The position numbers and the translations under genes were made by a program. From a virus (lineage: Duplodnaviria > Caudoviricetes), in the IMG/VR virus record IMGVR_UViG_3300048856_000017, positions 1-32,496 of that record: 32,496 nt of DNA. One strand, 5' to 3'. Every line of letters begins with the position of its first letter. Position 1 is the stretch's first letter. The notes beneath the pieces are model-generated. The model was not told where the DNA came from. It made no database searches and saw only the letters and a list, made by a program, of their open reading frames with translations. Shown piece after piece: positions 358 through 32,496 of the stretch.

Positions 358-593
358 GATTGCTTCACTGCTTTAAGACTTTGGGACAGGGCCGCCATAA
401 GGCGTTTCTGTGCAGACATTGCGGGTATGTGAGCGAGGATTGCGCCGTGGCGCATACCGATCGGCACGAAGCGAAATTGATCGTCGTACCAGTGCTCGTT
501 GAGGCTCGCCCGGTAGTGCGTACGCAGGGTTTCGAGCAGCGCTTGCGCCTCGATCGAGGGCAGTGGGGTGTTGATAATTACGGCGTTTCCCAT
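354..593 (-). CDS. Hypothetical early protein (MGNAVIINTPLP...)
   Basis: GAGG RBS upstream of ATG 593; stop is coupled to the replicase start. Confidence 0.75.
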   Translation of the reverse strand: MGNAVIINTPLPSIEAQALLETLRTHYRASLNEHWYDDQFRFVPIGMRHGAILAHIPAMSAQKRLMAALSQSLKAVKQS

Positions 594-23714: not shown

Positions 23715-24833
23715 TCAAGCCTCGGGGGCTAGGTCGCCAAATTCTCCAGATTCCAGACATTCTTTTGCGCAATTCACTGTCTGTTCCAAAACCGCTCTCG
23801 GGTCAGCTCGTCCATTGATCTGCTCCATCACATAATTTCGGACGTAATACATGGGGTGTTTTTGCGGGTCTAAGATGGCCAGCATTGTCTCTTTCAGACA
23901 GGTGCGAAATTTATCTTTCAGTAACGTATTTATTGTATCAGTCGAAGCTTGCATGTCATTGGAGTGCGGCGCTTGTATTTTTGCGTCTATGATTTCGTCT
24001 ATGACTGATCTGTGCCAGACGACACCGATTTGGGCTTCAAGTTCTGATGTGTCGCCAATCCTACCGATGTATATGCCCGTCAAAATTGCAGCCGGTTTAC
24101 CTAAGTGCTGGGTCACGCCCCCCGCCTTTAGAATCCCATGCTTACTGTAATGAAAAACAGGAGCGCCGGACATCCCGCTTTTGGATGCGCAATCAATCAA
24201 GAACTTTTGTTGGTTATTCCAGCCTGGGGATACGGAGGAGGCCACGGTGGCCCGTTTCCAAATTGGATTTCCGGTCCAGTCGGTGATGCCCTGGGGGTAA
24301 CCAGGGATGAACAATTCATCGGTGGGCTGCAGCAAATTCAGCCAGCTATTGATTAGGTCTTTGTCAGCCGGCTCGCAATCCTGTACCGAGGTAACGGTAA
24401 GGTCAGGTTGGCCGAAAACAGGCTGGCGAAGCGTCATCCTATGAGAGTGATTTTCTGTGCCGGCATAGTACTCGTGTACGTACGGATGATTCATATCCAG
24501 CGGGATAGCGACTACATCTACTCTTGGCCATCCTAGCGGATGGATGTAGTAGTACGTTGTGTCATGGAGATCCTCAACAGGCAGAACAAACTGCATTCGA
24601 AATCCACCGAAACTCGAATTTCTCGAAAGCCCGACCAAGATGTTGTCAGGTACTGCCAAGTACTTCTTATCTAAGAGCTGGTAGTTTTCGTTATGCCTAC
24701 CGGTGACATTGTGCCAAGCGGTTACCAAATAGTGGTTGGAATCCTTCTCATATATAACCCCTGAACCTATAGCTAATACGGTCGAGCCCCTACGCATTGT
24801 GAGGTGGGTGACGGTGTTGCTCGCGTCGTACAT
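23715..24833 (-). CDS. Cargo trypsin-like serine protease with C-terminal helical extension
   Basis: GSG, LVTAWH (H41), VDVVAI (D106), GYP, SGMSGAPV (S222); AT-richer than the flanks; AAGGGAG RBS; no signal peptide evident. Confidence 0.88.
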   Translation of the reverse strand: MYDASNTVTHLTMRRGSTVLAIGSGVIYEKDSNHYLVTAWHNVTGRHNENYQLLDKKYLAVPDNILVGLSRNSSFGGFRMQFVLPVEDLHDTTYYYIHPLGWPRVDVVAIPLDMNHPYVHEYYAGTENHSHRMTLRQPVFGQPDLTVTSVQDCEPADKDLINSWLNLLQPTDELFIPGYPQGITDWTGNPIWKRATVASSVSPGWNNQQKFLIDCASKSGMSGAPVFHYSKHGILKAGGVTQHLGKPAAILTGIYIGRIGDTSELEAQIGVVWHRSVIDEIIDAKIQAPHSNDMQASTDTINTLLKDKFRTCLKETMLAILDPQKHPMYYVRNYVMEQINGRADPRAVLEQTVNCAKECLESGEFGDLAPEA

Positions 24834-25236
24834 TGGTACTCCCTTAATTTGTAAAGCGGCATTTGGCTATAGACTCTGAAGTCGTTCTATTCCGGGGAAG
24901 TATCACAACCCAATCTAGACGAGGCGAGCTGTGCGAACCCAACATATAAAGGCTCAATTAAATCCGCCGCGAAGCCGCCGCTAGTATTGAGGCCGAGTGC
25001 GAATCCTTAGGCCCCGTGTCAGGTGATCAGCAACGCTTGCTGTGATTCAGCCACCACAATCATGGCTTTCGGCCGGGCCACGACTCTCTTCAGCTCTAAA
25101 TGCATTTCGAGCCCGCTCAAGTCAATAGTCCTTGAACTCCTCATCACTAAATCTCTCACCCGCCTTCCTCGTCGCACTGCAGAATATATCCATGCTTCGT
25201 AAAAAGCCCGCTGCGAAAAAAAACTGCTGGAAAAAA

Positions 25237-25260
25237 CACTTATCCCCCTCCCGCCGACGG
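25237..25260 (-). other. Candidate cos site
   Basis: Minus strand CCGTCGGCGGGAGGGGGATAAGTG resembles P2-family cohesive ends (P2 GGCGAGGCGGGGAAAGCAC); located between tail genes and attP, as in HP1-like phages. Confidence 0.55.
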
Positions 25261-25610
25261 GTTCCGTATCCTTTTTTTGTGCAAACCGAAAGGCAGTGCA
25301 AACGATTCCTCAGGCCAGGCGGGCTGCGGGCTTCTGTGGGGCAAGGGCAATTGCACAGAGTGCAAAGTTTTGAGAAGAAATGAAGCGCGCTTGCATGGCG
25401 TGATAAGGACCCGTCACGAAGGGGGAGTTGCGGAAAGGCCCGGATTCATTGGGCAAAAAATCTTAAAACCCTAGGTTTGTCGGGTTTCCAAATTGGGCTG
25501 TGATGAAATACTTACGGGATTCAGGAGGAATAGGCCTACAAGGAATTCTCCTGCAAGCCTTGTGCTGGAAGGCCTGCAGGCCGGTGGGGGTCGTTCACCG
25601 CATTGCACGG

Positions 25611-26081
25611 CTAATCTCGGGGTTCAAATATCATGCACCGGACTGACTTCTTCGATAGCACGCTGGCCACGCTTCGGTTTGGCTCGATGAACCTGGGGCT
25701 TTCGGACTCTGCTAAGAGCTTGCGTAACGATGCGTCGATTGTCAGTCCGCAGCGGTATTTATCGAAGCGGATTTGTAGGTCTTTGAGGTTGATCGCCAGT
25801 GTCGACTTAGGGTTTGCTGAGTGGTTGTAAGGTTCACCCTTACCGTCAAGCAGGTCGAGTGCCGACCAGAACGGTGCTAAGGCCTCTGCAGTCGACTGTT
25901 CGGGCAAGCCGATCTCCTGGAGTGGTGGCGGCTGTAAGCCAAGCAGGGTAGAGAAGTGGGTCAGTTGTTCATGGATGGCCGAACGCAGCGCGTTATTCCT
26001 GGTTCGATGCAGTTCTCTCAGCAGGAAAATCCTATGACGGGACATTGCTATCTGTTCAGTCACACTAAAACTGGTCGGCAT
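25611..26081 (-). CDS. Protein with a stand-alone homologue of the replicase C-terminal domain
   Basis: GAGGAG RBS before ATG 26081; FW..L..NHS..AINL.D..S..P.FIE.NRS..S..K.VRC..F shared with the C-terminus of the 30033 ORF. Confidence 0.85.
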   Translation of the reverse strand: MPTSFSVTEQIAMSRHRIFLLRELHRTRNNALRSAIHEQLTHFSTLLGLQPPPLQEIGLPEQSTAEALAPFWSALDLLDGKGEPYNHSANPKSTLAINLKDLQIRFDKYRCGLTIDASLRKLLAESESPRFIEPNRSVASVLSKKSVRCMIFEPRD

Positions 26082-26371
26082 CTTTATCTCCTCTGTGCAC
26101 TTCGGCAAACGTCATTCCAGCTAACTGCAGCACCCTGCTCACGTCCTCGCCAAGCACCGCCATGGAAAACGCCATTATCTACGGTGTCATCGAATTTAGA
26201 CGCTGAACCTCTCTGACGAAGATCGTCACCAGCTGGATGGAATCCTGGCTCCGGCGCAACTTGTCGAACTCATCTTCTATGAGAGCTGTAGGGGCGGTCG
26301 TTGCGCACCGCCTTCGGCTCTAAGCGTTCCACGCAAAACGTGACTGATTCGCTTGAATTCGTTCTAGGAAA

Positions 26372-26685
26372 GGGGGTGGGGTAGAAAAAATAGCGATATG
26401 AGCGATACGCCACATCAAAGCGGCTGGAGCCCGCGGATTTGCTGGGTTCCCATATCGCTATGAGAAGGTAATACGAAGCGATATTTACGTAACATTTTCA
26501 CCAAAGGCCCGGATTCATTGGGTTCTAGGGAAAAGAAATATAGCTATTAGGAAAGGTAATACTATCGCTTTCATATCGCTCAAATATCGCCTTTTCTCGA
26601 AAACGCTGAAAGCCTTGATTCACAAGGGCTCTAGCCGTTTCCGTGGCAGCATATTACTTATATCGCTCTTTTTTTGGCCCCCCAC
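26372..26685. repeat. Iteron cluster, candidate replication origin
   Basis: AGCGATAT/ATATCGCT and GGTAATAC variants in both orientations (26392, 26401, 26452, 26466, 26477, 26555, 26562, 26573, 26584, 26651, 26660); the two ends form an imperfect inverted repeat; AT-rich and non-coding. Confidence 0.7.
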
Positions 26686-26838: not shown

Positions 26839-26874
26839 AAACAAAGGGCCTGCATCGCTGCAAGCCCTTGTTTT
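26839..26874 (-). terminator. Terminator that would follow the reconstituted tRNA after integration
   Basis: AACAAAGGGC...GCCCTTGTT hairpin with A/T tails, immediately 3' of the tRNA CCA. Confidence 0.7.
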
Positions 26875-26877
26875 GTA

Positions 26878-26922
26878 TGGTGCCGGCACCAGGAGTCGAA
26901 CCCGGGACCTACTGATTACAAG
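26878..26922 (-). tRNA. 3' half of tRNA-Thr(TGT), serving as att core; not a full tRNA gene
   Basis: CTTGTAATCAGTAGGTCCCGGGTTCGACTCCTGGTGCCGGCACCA contains the anticodon loop, T-arm and CCA; there is no D-arm or 5' acceptor strand. Confidence 0.92.
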
Positions 26923-27221
26923 GCAGATGCTTCTAACTTATAGATCAATGGGTTACACGTTTTCTTATTACGTCGCTCATGTGTGAAAGTCCTATGCCGC
27001 TTGGCCCGTTCTTCTCTTATTACGTGGCTCTGTTCCGCAGGGAAAATGGATGGCCGCCAAGACTCGACACGTCCGCCGAACCGTCCTGAACCTTTTGCAC
27101 CTCGCTGCCTCTACAGTTTTGTTTACCGCCGAAGCTGCCGGCAGCAGGACCTAGGAGACATGAATGTCTAATGTCCGGCCTCCTGGCTGTGAATGCGAGC
27201 AGCAGATATCAGGGAGGCTTC

Positions 27222-27482
27222 ATGCCTATTAGTAGCGTCACCGCCATCAATCGAGTCAGGGCCCGCATCGGTGAGCTGCACACAGCATCCAGCCTGAGCC
27301 ATTGCGAGAAGCTGCACGCCGACGTGACCGGTTATTGTCGGGCGTTGCTTGACTGCGGTGTGATTGACGAGAACCAATGGCACCTGTTGACCCGTCTGGC
27401 CAATATTGAGCTGGCCGCGTGGATGCCGGCGTACAGACCAAGCGTCCGGTTGCCAGGGTGGACGGCCAAGGACTACGAATAA
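27222..27482 (+). CDS. Hypothetical protein
   Basis: GGGAGG RBS before ATG 27222 (alternative start 27171); followed by a terminator. Confidence 0.7.
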   Translation: MPISSVTAINRVRARIGELHTASSLSHCEKLHADVTGYCRALLDCGVIDENQWHLLTRLANIELAAWMPAYRPSVRLPGWTAKDYE

Positions 27483-27514
27483 CGCGCCCTATGTTCAATC
27501 GGCCCCCACAGCAG

Positions 27515-27537
27515 AGCCCGCCTAGGCGGGCTTTTTT
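27515..27537 (+). terminator. Rho-independent terminator
   Basis: AGCCCGCC-TA-GGCGGGCT followed by a T run. Confidence 0.85.
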
Positions 27538-27621
27538 GTGGCCACTGGCAGCCAGCCCCCTGTTTCTGGTCTACCATTTTCGCTGCTTATGGTGAGTCAT
27601 ACGAATGTCCCGGAGGACTGC

Positions 27622-27912
27622 GTGTCGTTACCCATCACCGCCCGGCAGTGGAACGCCCTGCGCGCACTGCAACGTGACCGGCCCGATTTGGGCGAACTGG
27701 CCGCCGCGATCGCGCTGGCCTTCGATGCCTCGATGATCGAGAACCCCGAGCTGGCCCGGACCATCCTGGAAGTGACGTGCCGACGGATCGTGTCAGGGGA
27801 ACCGTTTGCCCGGACCGCGTTGATCGATCATCTGGAACGTTTCCGAGAAATGGGATGTTTATCGCATGAGCAGGTCAACCAGTTTTCGGAGCAAGTCAGG
27901 AAGCTGGGTTGA
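27622..27912 (+). CDS. Hypothetical helical protein
   Basis: GGAGG RBS before GTG 27622; next gene starts 2 nt after its stop. Confidence 0.75.
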   Translation: MSLPITARQWNALRALQRDRPDLGELAAAIALAFDASMIENPELARTILEVTCRRIVSGEPFARTALIDHLERFREMGCLSHEQVNQFSEQVRKLG

Positions 27913-27914
27913 TC

Positions 27915-28175
27915 ATGCGTCAGGGTATTCAGGAAGACACGCTACGAGCCATGCTCGAAGCCAATGCGGTGCGCGAGGTGCTGGTCAGCCGGCACGACGA
28001 GAAATGGTCCTTGGCGATCCGTGTGGGCGGTGCCGGCAGCCGCTGGCTACCGGTACGCTCGCGCCGTGAGGCGCTGCGTACCTGGGCCAGCCTGACGGCG
28101 GTTGGACGCTTCGCTGAATCGGCAGGCATCAAGGCGTTCCAAGTGGAAGTCTCCGGCCGTTCGCTAGGTTTGTGA
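27915..28175 (+). CDS. Small protein resembling plasmid-associated 'ParC/partition C'-like family
   Basis: TLRAMLEANAVREV...W.L.IR.G...RS.R...R.W..L..V......GI..F.V pattern, recalled from small plasmid proteins; not verified. Confidence 0.6.
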   Translation: MRQGIQEDTLRAMLEANAVREVLVSRHDEKWSLAIRVGGAGSRWLPVRSRREALRTWASLTAVGRFAESAGIKAFQVEVSGRSLGL

Positions 28176-30032: not shown

Positions 30033-32496
30033 TCACCCCGCCTGGAACATCCAACACCGCACGGTTTTCGGCTTATCGGCGGCATCAGTTGCCCAGGCCG
30101 AACAGATGCTCCTGTTGGACTCAATAAACTTTGGGCACTTGCTGGTTTTCAGGTGGCGTTTGAGTTCAGTCAGGTCTGGCACTTTCTGACGGTGCTCCGC
30201 GGCTTCTTTGGCAAAGTCGTTGAGGTTCACCGCGATGAAGGCTTCATTGCGGGAGTGGTTCAGGCCGCCGGCGGTGCTGTTCAGGTACTCGTACAGCTCC
30301 CAGAACTCGACCACGATCGGGTGATCGGCATTGATCGCCAGCTGGCGTTCCTTGGCCATGTTCTGGATCTCGCTGTGGGCTGCTTCCACCTGATGTTTTT
30401 TCAGCGGCACAACGTGCGTCAGGGCATCAACGAGGGCATGCAGTTGCGCGTGGTTTTTGGCGATCCGCACGGTGCGGATTTCCGGCAGGGCGAGCAGCTG
30501 CTGTTCGTACTTCGGCCCTTTCTCCCGAACCGTCTCCATCACCATGCTTTCAGTCATCGTGGACTTGACCAGAAATCCGCTGACCCGGTCGACCGGCATG
30601 CGCTCAAGTTTCTCGACCAGCAATTTTGTCTGCGGGGTCTGACCTTCTTTTGTCATGGCGATGTGAACGATGCGCTGCAGGATGGGCTCGGAGGCGTTCA
30701 CCGCATGGTTTTGGCCGATGACCACTGCGCCTCGAAAAGGCGGTTCGCGTGTGTCGTTGCCGTTGTTCTTCACGCCGGTGGAGCGGACGCTGCGCCCGTT
30801 GTAAGCGGTCTTCAGTTCATCCCAGTCGTACTGTTTCGTCGGCCCACCATCGCTTTTTTCCCGTTCCGACTCGATCAGTACGACCGGCAGGTTGCCGACC
30901 TGGGCGAAGTTACGGGCCCGAGCGACTGGCGTGCCTTTGGTGGGGTCAAACCCTTCGTAATCGATACGGCCGCAGAGCTTCCACAGAAACTCGATCAGCG
31001 TGGACTTACCAGCGCCCGGCTCACCGATGATTTCCATGAAGGGATAGCTTTTCTGGTGCTGCCGGATCTGCTCGGCGAACAGCGAGCCAAACCAGAACGC
31101 GAGCGCGACCAGGCCTTTAGCGCCGAAGCACTCCCAGATGATATCCAGCCACTCGGTGTCGAACTTCTGCAGGTCCGTATTGAGGTTGAGGGTGACCGAC
31201 TGGCTGAGGGTCTTGATGCTCAGCCGCTCCATATCGAAGAAGTCTTCTTCGTTCAGCTTGAACACCTTGCCGTCGCGTACCGCCACGTCGCCATAGACAT
31301 AGGCACCGTGCTCACGGGTGTAACCGGTGAAGTCGATGGTCTGCACGGTCTTGAGGGCGTCGGTCTGTTCCTCAATGAAGGCGTCCAGTTGCTGAGTGGT
31401 ACCGGTAAACATCCCGCCTGGGGCAATACCGAGCAGGCGCTTTTTGAACTCGGCAGACGATGCGATCTGCGAGCTGGTAAAGGTGTTCTTGATCGGCGCT
31501 GCGTCGTGGGCAAACGTGATCCGGAAGTAATACCAGGATTCGTCGGTCAGTTTGTTTTCCTGGTAATACAGCGCTTTAGGATTGCAGGTCGCAATACGCT
31601 GCAGCGCGCCGCACTGTTGCATGGCCTTGGCTCGCATCTGCTTGTTGTTCAGCAGCTGGTCGTCGTGGTGCTCGCTGTCCTCAAGCTCTTGGATCGCCTT
31701 GTTGTACTTTTCCAGATCGAGCTTGAACCAGTACAGACGGTTGCCGAACTCCAAGTGGAATTCGCTCCGGCGCTTCCAGTCGAACATGACCAGAGCCTTC
31801 TCTGTAGCGTTCTCGGCGATCAGGAGCGCGCCGTGGTGCCGTGCGATGGCAATGTCCTTCTCCACTTGCGCATCACGCTTCTCGCCTTCGTCCAGGAACG
31901 CCCAGCGCTGATGCAGGTCGTTCCAGTCAACCTTGCGTGCATCGCGCTGGGGGATCTGGGCCGCCTCACACACGAAGCCCATTTCTCGCGCCTGGCGGAC
32001 CCAGCGCTTCGTGTAGGCATGCGCGCCTGGCTCGTTATCGAGTGCCCAGACCAGTCTCGGCAGCTTGCCTGCGCGCTGTGTCACCAGTGCTTTCAGCGAA
32101 TCTTCAGGAAAGGCGTTTGAGGACATCGCTGACACGGCGTCGATACCGTTGTGCACCAGGGCGATCGCATCGAAGATCCCTTCGACAATCCACAATTCCT
32201 TGACCTCCTGTAGGTCAACGGACGGCGGGCACCACCACACGCCCTTGTAGCTCTCGCCAGGCATGAACCGCGCTTTCATTTTTCCGAAGCGGGCGGGCCG
32301 GTCGATCAGCCGTTCCCAGTACCCTCCTTTGTCGAGGGCAAACCGGACCGTGGCACTGCCGGCGTTGTCTTTCGCGGAGTGGAACGACTCTTGGGTGAAC
32401 CAGCCGGAGATCAACTCCATTTTGAAGCTGCGAGCAAACTCCAGGTAAGCGCGAGCGGTGGCTGTCGGGGCGTTGTCGGATGCCGGCGCGAGCTTG
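30033..32496 (-). CDS. Primase-helicase replicase (TOPRIM + P-loop helicase + C-terminal domain), P4 alpha-like architecture
   Basis: TOPRIM WIVEGIFDAIAL and WALDNE; Walker A GEPGAGKST; VLIE Walker B; N-terminus lies at 357->128 across the junction. Confidence 0.93.
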   Translation of the reverse strand, partial: KLAPASDNAPTATARAYLEFARSFKMELISGWFTQESFHSAKDNAGSATVRFALDKGGYWERLIDRPARFGKMKARFMPGESYKGVWWCPPSVDLQEVKELWIVEGIFDAIALVHNGIDAVSAMSSNAFPEDSLKALVTQRAGKLPRLVWALDNEPGAHAYTKRWVRQAREMGFVCEAAQIPQRDARKVDWNDLHQRWAFLDEGEKRDAQVEKDIAIARHHGALLIAENATEKALVMFDWKRRSEFHLEFGNRLYWFKLDLEKYNKAIQELEDSEHHDDQLLNNKQMRAKAMQQCGALQRIATCNPKALYYQENKLTDESWYYFRITFAHDAAPIKNTFTSSQIASSAEFKKRLLGIAPGGMFTGTTQQLDAFIEEQTDALKTVQTIDFTGYTREHGAYVYGDVAVRDGKVFKLNEEDFFDMERLSIKTLSQSVTLNLNTDLQKFDTEWLDIIWECFGAKGLVALAFWFGSLFAEQIRQHQKSYPFMEIIGEPGAGKSTLIEFLWKLCGRIDYEGFDPTKGTPVARARNFAQVGNLPVVLIESEREKSDGGPTKQYDWDELKTAYNGRSVRSTGVKNNGNDTREPPFRGAVVIGQNHAVNASEPILQRIVHIAMTKEGQTPQTKLLVEKLERMPVDRVSGFLVKSTMTESMVMETVREKGPKYEQQLLALPEIRTVRIAKNHAQLHALVDALTHVVPLKKHQVEAAHSEIQNMAKERQLAINADHPIVVEFWELYEYLNSTAGGLNHSRNEAFIAVNLNDFAKEAAEHRQKVPDLTELKRHLKTSKCPKFIESNRSICSAWATDAADKPKTVRCWMFQAG

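What the first reader, a model, noticed from the sequence alone, without database searches (positions are those of the whole stretch)
25611..26081. Stand-alone copy of the replicase C-terminal domain encoded beside the candidate origin
Seen: PFWSALDLLDGKGEPYNHSANPKSTLAINLKDL...LRKLLAESESPRFIEPNRSVAS..KSVRCMIF aligns motif for motif with the replicase end (about 30033-30310) EFWELYEYLNSTAGGLNHSRNEAFIAVNLNDF...LKRHLKTSKCPKFIESNRSICS..KTVRCWMF. It has its own strong RBS, an unrelated ~60-aa helical N-terminus, and starts about 300 bp from the iteron cluster. Known: in P4 alpha the C-terminal winged helix is the origin-binding domain and the target of Cnr. Inference: an origin-binding decoy that silences the prophage origin, controls copy number, or blocks replication of related superinfecting phages or satellites.
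Basis: partly seen in the sequence, partly recalled or inferred. Interest (0 to 1): 0.8.

Follow-up and report, generated by a model that had tools for sequence, protein, structure and literature searches.

The report
Headless antirepressor mimicking replicase's origin-reading wing
A small optional gene next to this phage's probable replication origin is a headless member of the shuffled "antirepressor-like" protein family, and the part predicted to read DNA matches the phage's own replication enzyme, so it likely competes for origin sites, which is untested.

Summary
The homology is real: 28% over 147 aa, E 5e-12. The gene is intact and under purifying selection. It is not a recent copy of the replicase end. 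All 156 residues form the C-terminal module of Bro-network "antirepressor-like" proteins; 74 of 105 scanned relatives carry a Bro-N, P22_AR_N, KilA-N, ORF6N, AntA or Rha head. Close orthologs sit behind a C4/IsrK RNA switch, which a ~420-bp deletion removed here. The slot is optional cargo: 6 of 41 near-complete relatives have the gene, and phiCTX lacks it.

New here: the predicted wing, which reads iterons in SaPI5 PriRep5, ranks the cognate-type replicase first to third of 36, while the helices mostly do not. Across 13 gene–replicase pairs the wing core tracks the resident replicase (p 0.001; held-out five pairs p 0.18). Best reading: a likely iteron-binding competitor built on an antirepressor scaffold. 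DNA binding, origin function and expression are unshown. The scan noted this family before on other DNA (e1-5348165), judging it probably not an origin regulator.

The parts
25611..26081 (-). 156-aa headless Bro-network module gene (PHROG 20645)
   Evidence: dN/dS 0.04-0.25 over 21 pairs of 7 copies
25908..26063 (-). N-terminal helical hairpin (residues 7-58), a separate Bro-network segment
   Evidence: AlphaFold helices 7-26 and 30-46; found alone behind an AntA-like head in record G050
25614..25892 (-). Predicted winged-helix domain (residues 64-156), paralog of the replicase C-terminal domain
25626..25712 (-). Predicted wing (residues 124-152), with core 136-139 matching the cognate replicase
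   Evidence: strands 130-139 and 146-152
26084..26302 (-). Decayed remnant of a 73-aa upstream ORF (start lost, frameshift, internal stop)
   Evidence: alignment with L023 and L024
26325..26335 (-). Junction of a ~420-bp deletion that removed the putative promoter, the C4/IsrK RNA switch and the first small ORF
   Evidence: alignment; Rfam finds C4, c4-a1b1 and isrK in L023 and L024 and nothing in the window
26392..26667 (.). Candidate origin: cluster of AGCGATA repeats in opposed orientations around an AT-richer core
   Evidence: same layout with other motifs in related phages; same position as the R3 repeat region of phiCTX. Origin function inferred.
26878..26924 (-). attP core: 3' part of tRNA-Thr, followed by a terminator-like hairpin at 26844-26869
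   Evidence: whole tRNA at the same place in prophage relatives
25216..25469 (.). Conserved non-coding block, probably the cos region
   Evidence: conserved in relatives; phiCTX has attP, repeats, cos in this order. Inferred.
30033..32496 (-). Toprim primase-helicase (replicase), continuing over the circular junction to its start at 357; its last ~95 aa are the paralogous domain
   Evidence: (127-bp terminal repeat); 58% identical to phiCTX orf37

Best explanation
The gene encodes a headless Bro-network (antirepressor-like) protein, a helical hairpin plus a predicted winged helix, whose wing matches the phage's own replicase, so it likely binds the same repeats and would compete with the replicase at the probable origin. 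Shown: the homology, the family, the purifying selection, the optional position between the repeat cluster and the cos-like block, the ancestral C4/IsrK control, and the wing match. Inferred: that the cluster is the origin, that the replicase reads it with its wing (by analogy with SaPI5 PriRep5), and that the small protein binds it. With no primase or helicase attached, binding would most simply damp initiation, either on its own genome or on incoming relatives that share the repeat; most such relatives lack the gene. In the ancestral arrangement the C4 RNA would keep it off in the lysogen and allow a burst on infection or induction. How it is expressed after the deletion is unknown.
For: Wing match: in 10-aa windows starting at residues 124-144, five headless proteins rank the AGCGATA-type replicases 1st (6 windows), 2nd (2) or 3rd (3) of 36; the 28 windows starting at 68-122 rank them 3rd-35th, never 1st or 2nd. 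The 9 headless proteins take the top 9 places of 126 family members for wing similarity to that replicase type. In a quick tree built without the wing, the nearest relatives have different wings. Across 13 module-replicase pairs from the same phage, the four residues before Ser140 match the resident replicase better than permuted pairs: p 0.001, and 0.008 without this lineage; helices p 0.74; of 82 four-residue windows only those starting at 136-139 have p<0.03. Gene 3' ends match the resident replicase gene at DNA level in some phages, e.g. 26 of 27 nt in G085 (permutation p 0.001 over 9 pairs). PriRep5 reads iterons with its wing in the major groove (bioRxiv 10.64898/2026.10.17.759575, passages). 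Top structural matches include SaPIBov1 Rep 400-553 (Z 5.6, rmsd 3.6, 86 aligned) and oriT-binding TcpK (Z 5.2). The gene stays intact while its upstream neighbour decayed. In 4 of 41 other records a module gene lies just downstream of the replicase gene.
Against: The wing region was chosen after seeing the match; the five pairs added afterwards give p 0.18 alone, and the lowest window p (0.0034 of 82 overlapping windows) does not survive strict correction. Several pairs do not match (G006, G013, G069, G339). Replicase wings do not map one-to-one onto repeat motifs: the same wing core occurs with different repeats. The helix before the wing does not match the cognate replicase (ranks 32-35 of 36). 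In this phage the DNA similarity in the wing is not above shuffles. 35 of 41 records of 25 kb or more with a close replicase lack the gene; 17 of them show the repeat cluster and cos-like block at most 340 bp apart, and 4 carry unrelated cargo there. None of 13 named phages has it. No sigma-70-type promoter was found upstream. Structural Z-scores are under 6, which is within the range of common folds.
Confidence: 0.42

Rival explanations
1. It is an ordinary Bro-network regulator or passenger from a C4-controlled cassette, acting on promoters or on a repressor like other antirepressor-like proteins. It lies near the origin only because the att-origin-cos region is a cargo slot and a deletion closed the gap. 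The wing match is chance or neutral gene conversion.
For: 74 of 105 scanned relatives carry antirepressor-type heads. C4/isrK precede the orthologs in L023 and L024 and fused genes in L015, L016, L359, L361, L363, L365. The Gifsy-1 isrK-orf45-anrP operon has this layout and AnrP raises antQ transcription (PMC4825925, passages). Fused forms also sit on the far side of the cos-like block. The slot holds unrelated genes in other phages. Held-out co-variation is not significant.
Against: This protein lacks the antirepressor-type head. The match to the resident replicase is confined to the predicted base-reading element and is absent from the helices. All AGCGATA sites of the genome lie in the cluster, none at the regulatory region.
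Confidence: 0.33
2. It works like P4 Cnr: it binds the replicase protein through the paralogous winged helix and changes its loading, without binding DNA itself.
For: Cnr controls P4 copy number (PMC8628076, passages), and ORF106 lies in the cI-controlled operon next to alpha (annotation; ORF106 = cnr is recalled). That Cnr acts through alpha's winged helix is recalled, not read. Module genes lie next to the replicase gene in 4 of 41 records.
Against: No sequence similarity between the module or replicase profiles and P4 ORF106 or the alpha C-terminus. The co-varying residues are in the predicted DNA-reading wing, not in the helices.
Confidence: 0.1
3. It binds the repeats but helps rather than hinders: it shapes the origin or the neighbouring attP, or recruits a partner through its hairpin, coupling replication to integration or excision.
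For: Same wing evidence. attP lies about 210 bp from the cluster. The hairpin is a separate, conserved segment.
Against: Most relatives and phiCTX do without it. No direct evidence for a partner.
Confidence: 0.1
4. In this phage the gene is a silent leftover after its promoter was deleted.
For: Promoter region and RNA switch deleted, upstream ORF decayed; no promoter found. Of 15 headless loci, L010 is interrupted at its 5' end and L022 is truncated.
Against: The frame and ribosome-binding site are intact while the neighbour decayed. Switch-less Pseudomonas syringae-type copies also show low dN/dS among themselves (0.08-0.25, few changes).
Confidence: 0.05

Closest known systems
Bro-network domain-swapping proteins (Bro-N, P22_AR_N, KilA-N, ORF6N, AntA, Phage_pRha; PMC10111431 sections 7 and 20 read)
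   Same: The whole protein is the C-terminal module found behind all six head types; relatives are often behind C4/IsrK RNAs.
   Different: It has no head domain. The module has no Pfam family and is paralogous to the phage's replicase end. The paper's supplement listing 144 Bro segments was not read and may include this module.
SaPI Rep / PriRep5 C-terminal winged helix (PDB 8tch; bioRxiv 10.64898/2026.10.17.759575, abstract and passages)
   Same: Predicted fold (Z 5.6); origin of about 300 bp with opposed short repeats around an AT-rich core; the wing reads the repeats.
   Different: There the domain is part of the helicase. Here a free paralog exists, and the replicase is a toprim primase-helicase of a P2-like phage. 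Similarity is structural and modest.
Phage P4 alpha origin-binding domain and Cnr
   Same: A small gene in an RNA-controlled operon proposed to tune a primase-helicase.
   Different: No sequence similarity to ORF106/DUF5375 or to alpha's C-terminus. cnr-family genes are in 90% of P4-like elements (PMC8628076, passages), whereas this gene is in 6 of 41 close relatives.
Gifsy-1 isrK-orf45-anrP and P1 c4-icd-ant type operons
   Same: RNA switch, small ORFs, then an antirepressor-like gene, as in L023 and L024 (PMC4825925 passages; the P1 layout is recalled).
   Different: The last gene here is headless, and the switch is deleted in this phage.
Pseudomonas phage phiCTX (Peduoviridae)
   Same: Replicase 58% identical; attP, repeat region with IHF sites, cos in the same order.
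   Different: Different repeat motif, no module gene, and a different tail-gene set (HP1-like here).

Membership tests
Bro-network antirepressor-like proteins | N-terminal Bro-N, P22_AR_N, KilA-N, ORF6N, AntA or Rha domain | tested here: not met
   No Pfam hit; no head remnant upstream. It is a headless derivative.
Bro-network antirepressor-like proteins | Segment shared with, and swapped among, such proteins | tested here: met
   51% identity over 96% of its length to a Bro-N protein; 74 of 105 relatives carry one of six heads.
Bro-network antirepressor-like proteins | Location in a C4/IsrK-controlled operon | tested here: inconclusive
   Met in orthologs L023 and L024, deleted in the window and in P. 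syringae-type copies.
Bro-network antirepressor-like proteins | Antirepressor or transcription-regulator activity | not testable with these tools
   Needs expression in a lysogen.
Winged-helix origin-binding domains of primase-helicases | Winged-helix fold | tested here: inconclusive
   Model: three helices, short strand, C-terminal hairpin, pLDDT 83-94. Best matches Z 5.2-5.9 include SaPI Rep and TcpK; Foldseek gave nothing at E<=0.001.
Winged-helix origin-binding domains of primase-helicases | Homology to the C-terminal domain of a primase-helicase | tested here: met
   E 5e-12 pairwise; profiles hit the replicase end in every phage record searched.
Winged-helix origin-binding domains of primase-helicases | Sequence-specific binding to origin repeats | not testable with these tools
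   Only indirect wing co-variation.
P4 Cnr (DUF5375) | Sequence homology to Cnr | tested here: not met
   Four profiles against P4 ORF106 gave negative scores; no DUF5375 hit.
P4 Cnr (DUF5375) | Binds the primase-helicase and lowers copy number | not testable with these tools
   Needs experiment.

The most novel reading that the evidence does not exclude
P2-like phages repeatedly carry an antirepressor-type module whose DNA-reading wing is kept in step with the resident replicase, by gene conversion or selection. This gives a retargetable origin-binding competitor that an RNA switch releases on infection or induction, to throttle its own replication or that of relatives sharing the origin repeat. 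It would assign an origin-directed function to a large unannotated branch of the Bro network.
Probability: 0.25. Interest if true: 0.8.

Novelty: new variant of a known kind. Interest (0 to 1): 0.52.

Why it matters
Bro-network proteins are common in phages, labelled 'antirepressor' by default, and mostly untested. This module has 283 relatives at the 50% cluster level and no Pfam family. If its wing is tuned to the resident replicase, a share of these proteins would act at replication origins, linking the lysis-lysogeny RNA switch to replication control or to competition between related phages. The prediction is cheap to test, because the repeat, the protein and natural wing variants are all in hand.

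Tried and rejected
Recent duplication of the replicase end: rejected; identity 29% to its own replicase and 34% to a foreign one, and no DNA match above shuffles in this phage. Remnant of a lost head domain upstream: tblastn and nhmmer found none; the upstream remnant is a different small ORF. Whole-protein fold searches were dominated by the hairpin or gave nothing significant; P4 alpha's domain was not among the listed rows of any fold search, which does not exclude the relation. Complex prediction of the protein with the replicase C-terminal 111 aa returned no answer (score 0.00). GC skew does not mark the cluster in this phage or in phiCTX. RNA runs for a P. syringae-type locus: three RNA-library contig sets hold it but cover whole genomes, and the one raw-read run has no reads over the gene and appears to lack the prophage; inconclusive. 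ESM Atlas: unnamed viral clusters, one set with HTH_56 on 12% of members; a lead only. One-to-one code between replicase wing and repeat motif: not clean. The careful tree did not finish; only the quick tree of 62 rows was used. Pfam was run on 105 of the 150 listed hits. In the pair tests, near-identical lineages were collapsed (G001 with the window; G317 and G379 with G244; one of two G458 genes), and three fetched modules had no replicase match in the fetched stretch. Literature searches found no paper describing this module or a mapped origin for these phages; most subscription papers are not in that library.

Full report
Setting. The window is a complete circular genome of a temperate P2-like phage: it has a 127-bp terminal repeat, portal, terminase, capsid, tail and lysis genes, an integrase and excisionase, and a toprim primase-helicase that starts at 357 and runs over the junction to 30033. 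The replicase is 58% identical to phiCTX orf37. Close relatives are Pseudomonas prophages. The order around the finding is tail genes, a trypsin-like cargo gene, a conserved cos-like block, the ORF, a repeat cluster, attP (3' part of tRNA-Thr), three small ORFs and the integrase.

Observation. The ORF 25611-26081(-) encodes 156 aa. It aligns with the replicase end at 28% over 147 residues, E 5e-12, and the PHROG profiles cross-hit. All 7 AGCGATA sites of the genome lie in 26392-26667, 311 bp from the start. Related phages have a cluster of the same layout with other motifs, and phiCTX has its annotated R3 repeat region with IHF sites between attP and cos. SaPI origins are described as about 300 bp of opposed short iterons around an AT-rich core (bioRxiv 10.64898/2026.10.17.759575, passages). 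I therefore take the cluster as the probable origin; no experiment or paper I found shows it.

What the protein is. A profile search found 283 relatives at E<=0.001. Of 105 scanned with Pfam, 38 carry Bro-N, 25 P22_AR_N, 3 KilA-N, 3 ORF6N, 3 Rha and 2 AntA heads; 31 have no family, several of them headless proteins of 150-180 aa. The whole ORF, hairpin included, matches the C-terminal half of these proteins (51% to P0011). The hairpin also occurs without the second domain behind an AntA-like head (head identified by eye from the sequence). This is the domain-swapping Bro network described in PMC10111431 (sections 7 and 20 read, supplements not read). The model has a helical hairpin and an alpha/beta domain, pLDDT 94. 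The second domain alone gives four matches at Z>=5: an uncharacterised Coxiella protein (5.9), the C-terminal domain of STY4665 (5.7), SaPIBov1 Rep residues 400-553 (5.6) and TcpK on oriT (5.2). A winged helix is likely but the scores are modest. The domain is an old paralog, not a fresh copy: 29% to its own replicase end, 34% to a foreign one.

How it came next to the cluster. In orthologs L023 and L024 the cluster is followed by a putative promoter, C4/IsrK RNAs, two small ORFs and then the gene. In the window about 420 bp holding the promoter region, switch and first ORF are gone, and the second ORF has lost its start and gained a frameshift and a stop; P. syringae-type copies lost all of it and sit 100 bp from the cluster. 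The gene itself is conserved: dN/dS 0.04-0.25 over 21 pairs of 7 copies; 13 of 15 headless loci are intact. It is optional. Of 41 records of 25 kb or more with a close replicase, 6 were already known to carry it and the other 35 do not; 21 of those show both the cluster and the cos-like block, 17 with a gap of at most 340 bp and 4 with unrelated cargo. None of 13 named phages has a separate module gene; 4 of 41 more distant records do, just downstream of the replicase gene. In 401 Pseudomonas genomes there were 15 further module genes in 11 genomes, 11 of them translated and all fused, against 67 replicase-type matches.

The wing signal. PriRep5 of SaPI5 reads iteron bases with the wing of its winged helix (passages). 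I compared the module with replicases from phages using different repeats. For five headless proteins, 10-aa windows starting at residues 124-144 rank the AGCGATA-type replicases 1st to 3rd of 36, while the 28 windows starting at 68-122 rank them 3rd to 35th. The nine headless proteins hold the top nine places of 126 family members for wing similarity to that replicase type, and their nearest relatives in a quick tree built without the wing have other wings. Over 13 pairs of module and replicase from one phage, residues 136-139 match the resident replicase better than permuted pairs (p 0.001; 0.008 without this lineage), the helices do not (p 0.74), and only four of 82 four-residue windows, those starting at 136-139, reach p<0.03. 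One lineage shows an exact five-residue match (G244, G317, G379), and some gene ends match the resident replicase gene in DNA (26 of 27 nt in G085). Against this: the region was picked after seeing the first match; the five pairs added later give p 0.18 alone; several pairs do not match; shared host and codon use can inflate such tests; replicase wings do not map cleanly onto repeat motifs; and neutral gene conversion could give the same pattern.

Mechanism. The most likely reading (0.42) is a repeat-binding competitor: a free winged helix with the replicase's reading element and no enzyme, which would damp initiation on its own genome or on relatives sharing the repeat. The ancestral C4 switch would release it on infection or induction, by analogy with isrK-orf45-anrP (PMC4825925, passages). 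The main rival (0.33) is an ordinary Bro-network regulator or passenger in a cargo slot. A Cnr-like protein-protein inhibitor (0.10), a positive origin or attP factor (0.10) and a silent leftover (0.05) remain. No promoter was found for the switch-less gene.

Comparison with known systems. It works, if the reading holds, like the iteron-binding domain of SaPI Rep released from its helicase, and plays a role like that of P4 Cnr (copy-number control; PMC8628076, passages). It is not a Cnr family member and shows no sequence relation to P4 alpha's C-terminus. It is a headless derivative of the Bro network. Searches (listings seen) found no description of this module; the library lacks most subscription papers, including the original P4 and phiCTX work, which I only recall. 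The scan has noted this family once and analogous antirepressor-plus-replicase-domain fusions in other phages.

Verdict. Observation partly confirmed, interpretation partly supported. New variant of a known kind; interest 0.52, and 0.8 if the wing-tracking origin competitor is shown.

Noticed in passing
L300 5469-5745 (G069): A gene of about 88 aa consisting of the winged-helix domain only starts right at the replicase stop; the purest stand-alone form seen.
   Followed up: partly
L294 5653-6822 (G085); L299 (G083); L296 (G071): Module genes just downstream of the replicase gene; in G085 the last 27 nt are 26/27 identical to the replicase gene end, suggesting exchange between paralogs.
   Followed up: partly
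L371 2390-4222 (G458): Two Bro-N plus module genes in tandem, next to a repeat cluster.
   Followed up: no
window 25434-25453 and 26503-26522: An exact 20-bp direct repeat shared by the cos-like block and the centre of the repeat cluster; phiCTX has annotated IHF sites in the equivalent region.
   Followed up: no
window 23715-24833 (-): Trypsin-like peptidase cargo gene (Trypsin_2, E 5.8e-7) between the baseplate genes and the cos-like block; possibly a defence moron.
   Followed up: no
window 27171-28175 (+): Three small ORFs of unknown function (PHROG 33537, 13139, 22090) between attP and the integrase.
   Followed up: no
L002, L004, L005, L008, L009 positions 360-560 (-): A C4 RNA and its targets lie about 2.7 kb upstream of the headless gene on the other strand, beyond the tRNA, probably in a neighbouring element.
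   Followed up: no
L010 near 1903; L022 6001-6357; L023: Damaged cases: an insertion at the 5' end (L010), a truncated gene fused to a methylase-like fragment (L022), and an intact gene in a prophage whose replicase is split and whose repeat cluster is half replaced (L023).
   Followed up: partly
L330 7402-7720 (phage phi3): A 16-copy GGAACA cluster lies directly after the replicase gene rather than near attP, a different origin placement in the same replicase family.
   Followed up: no
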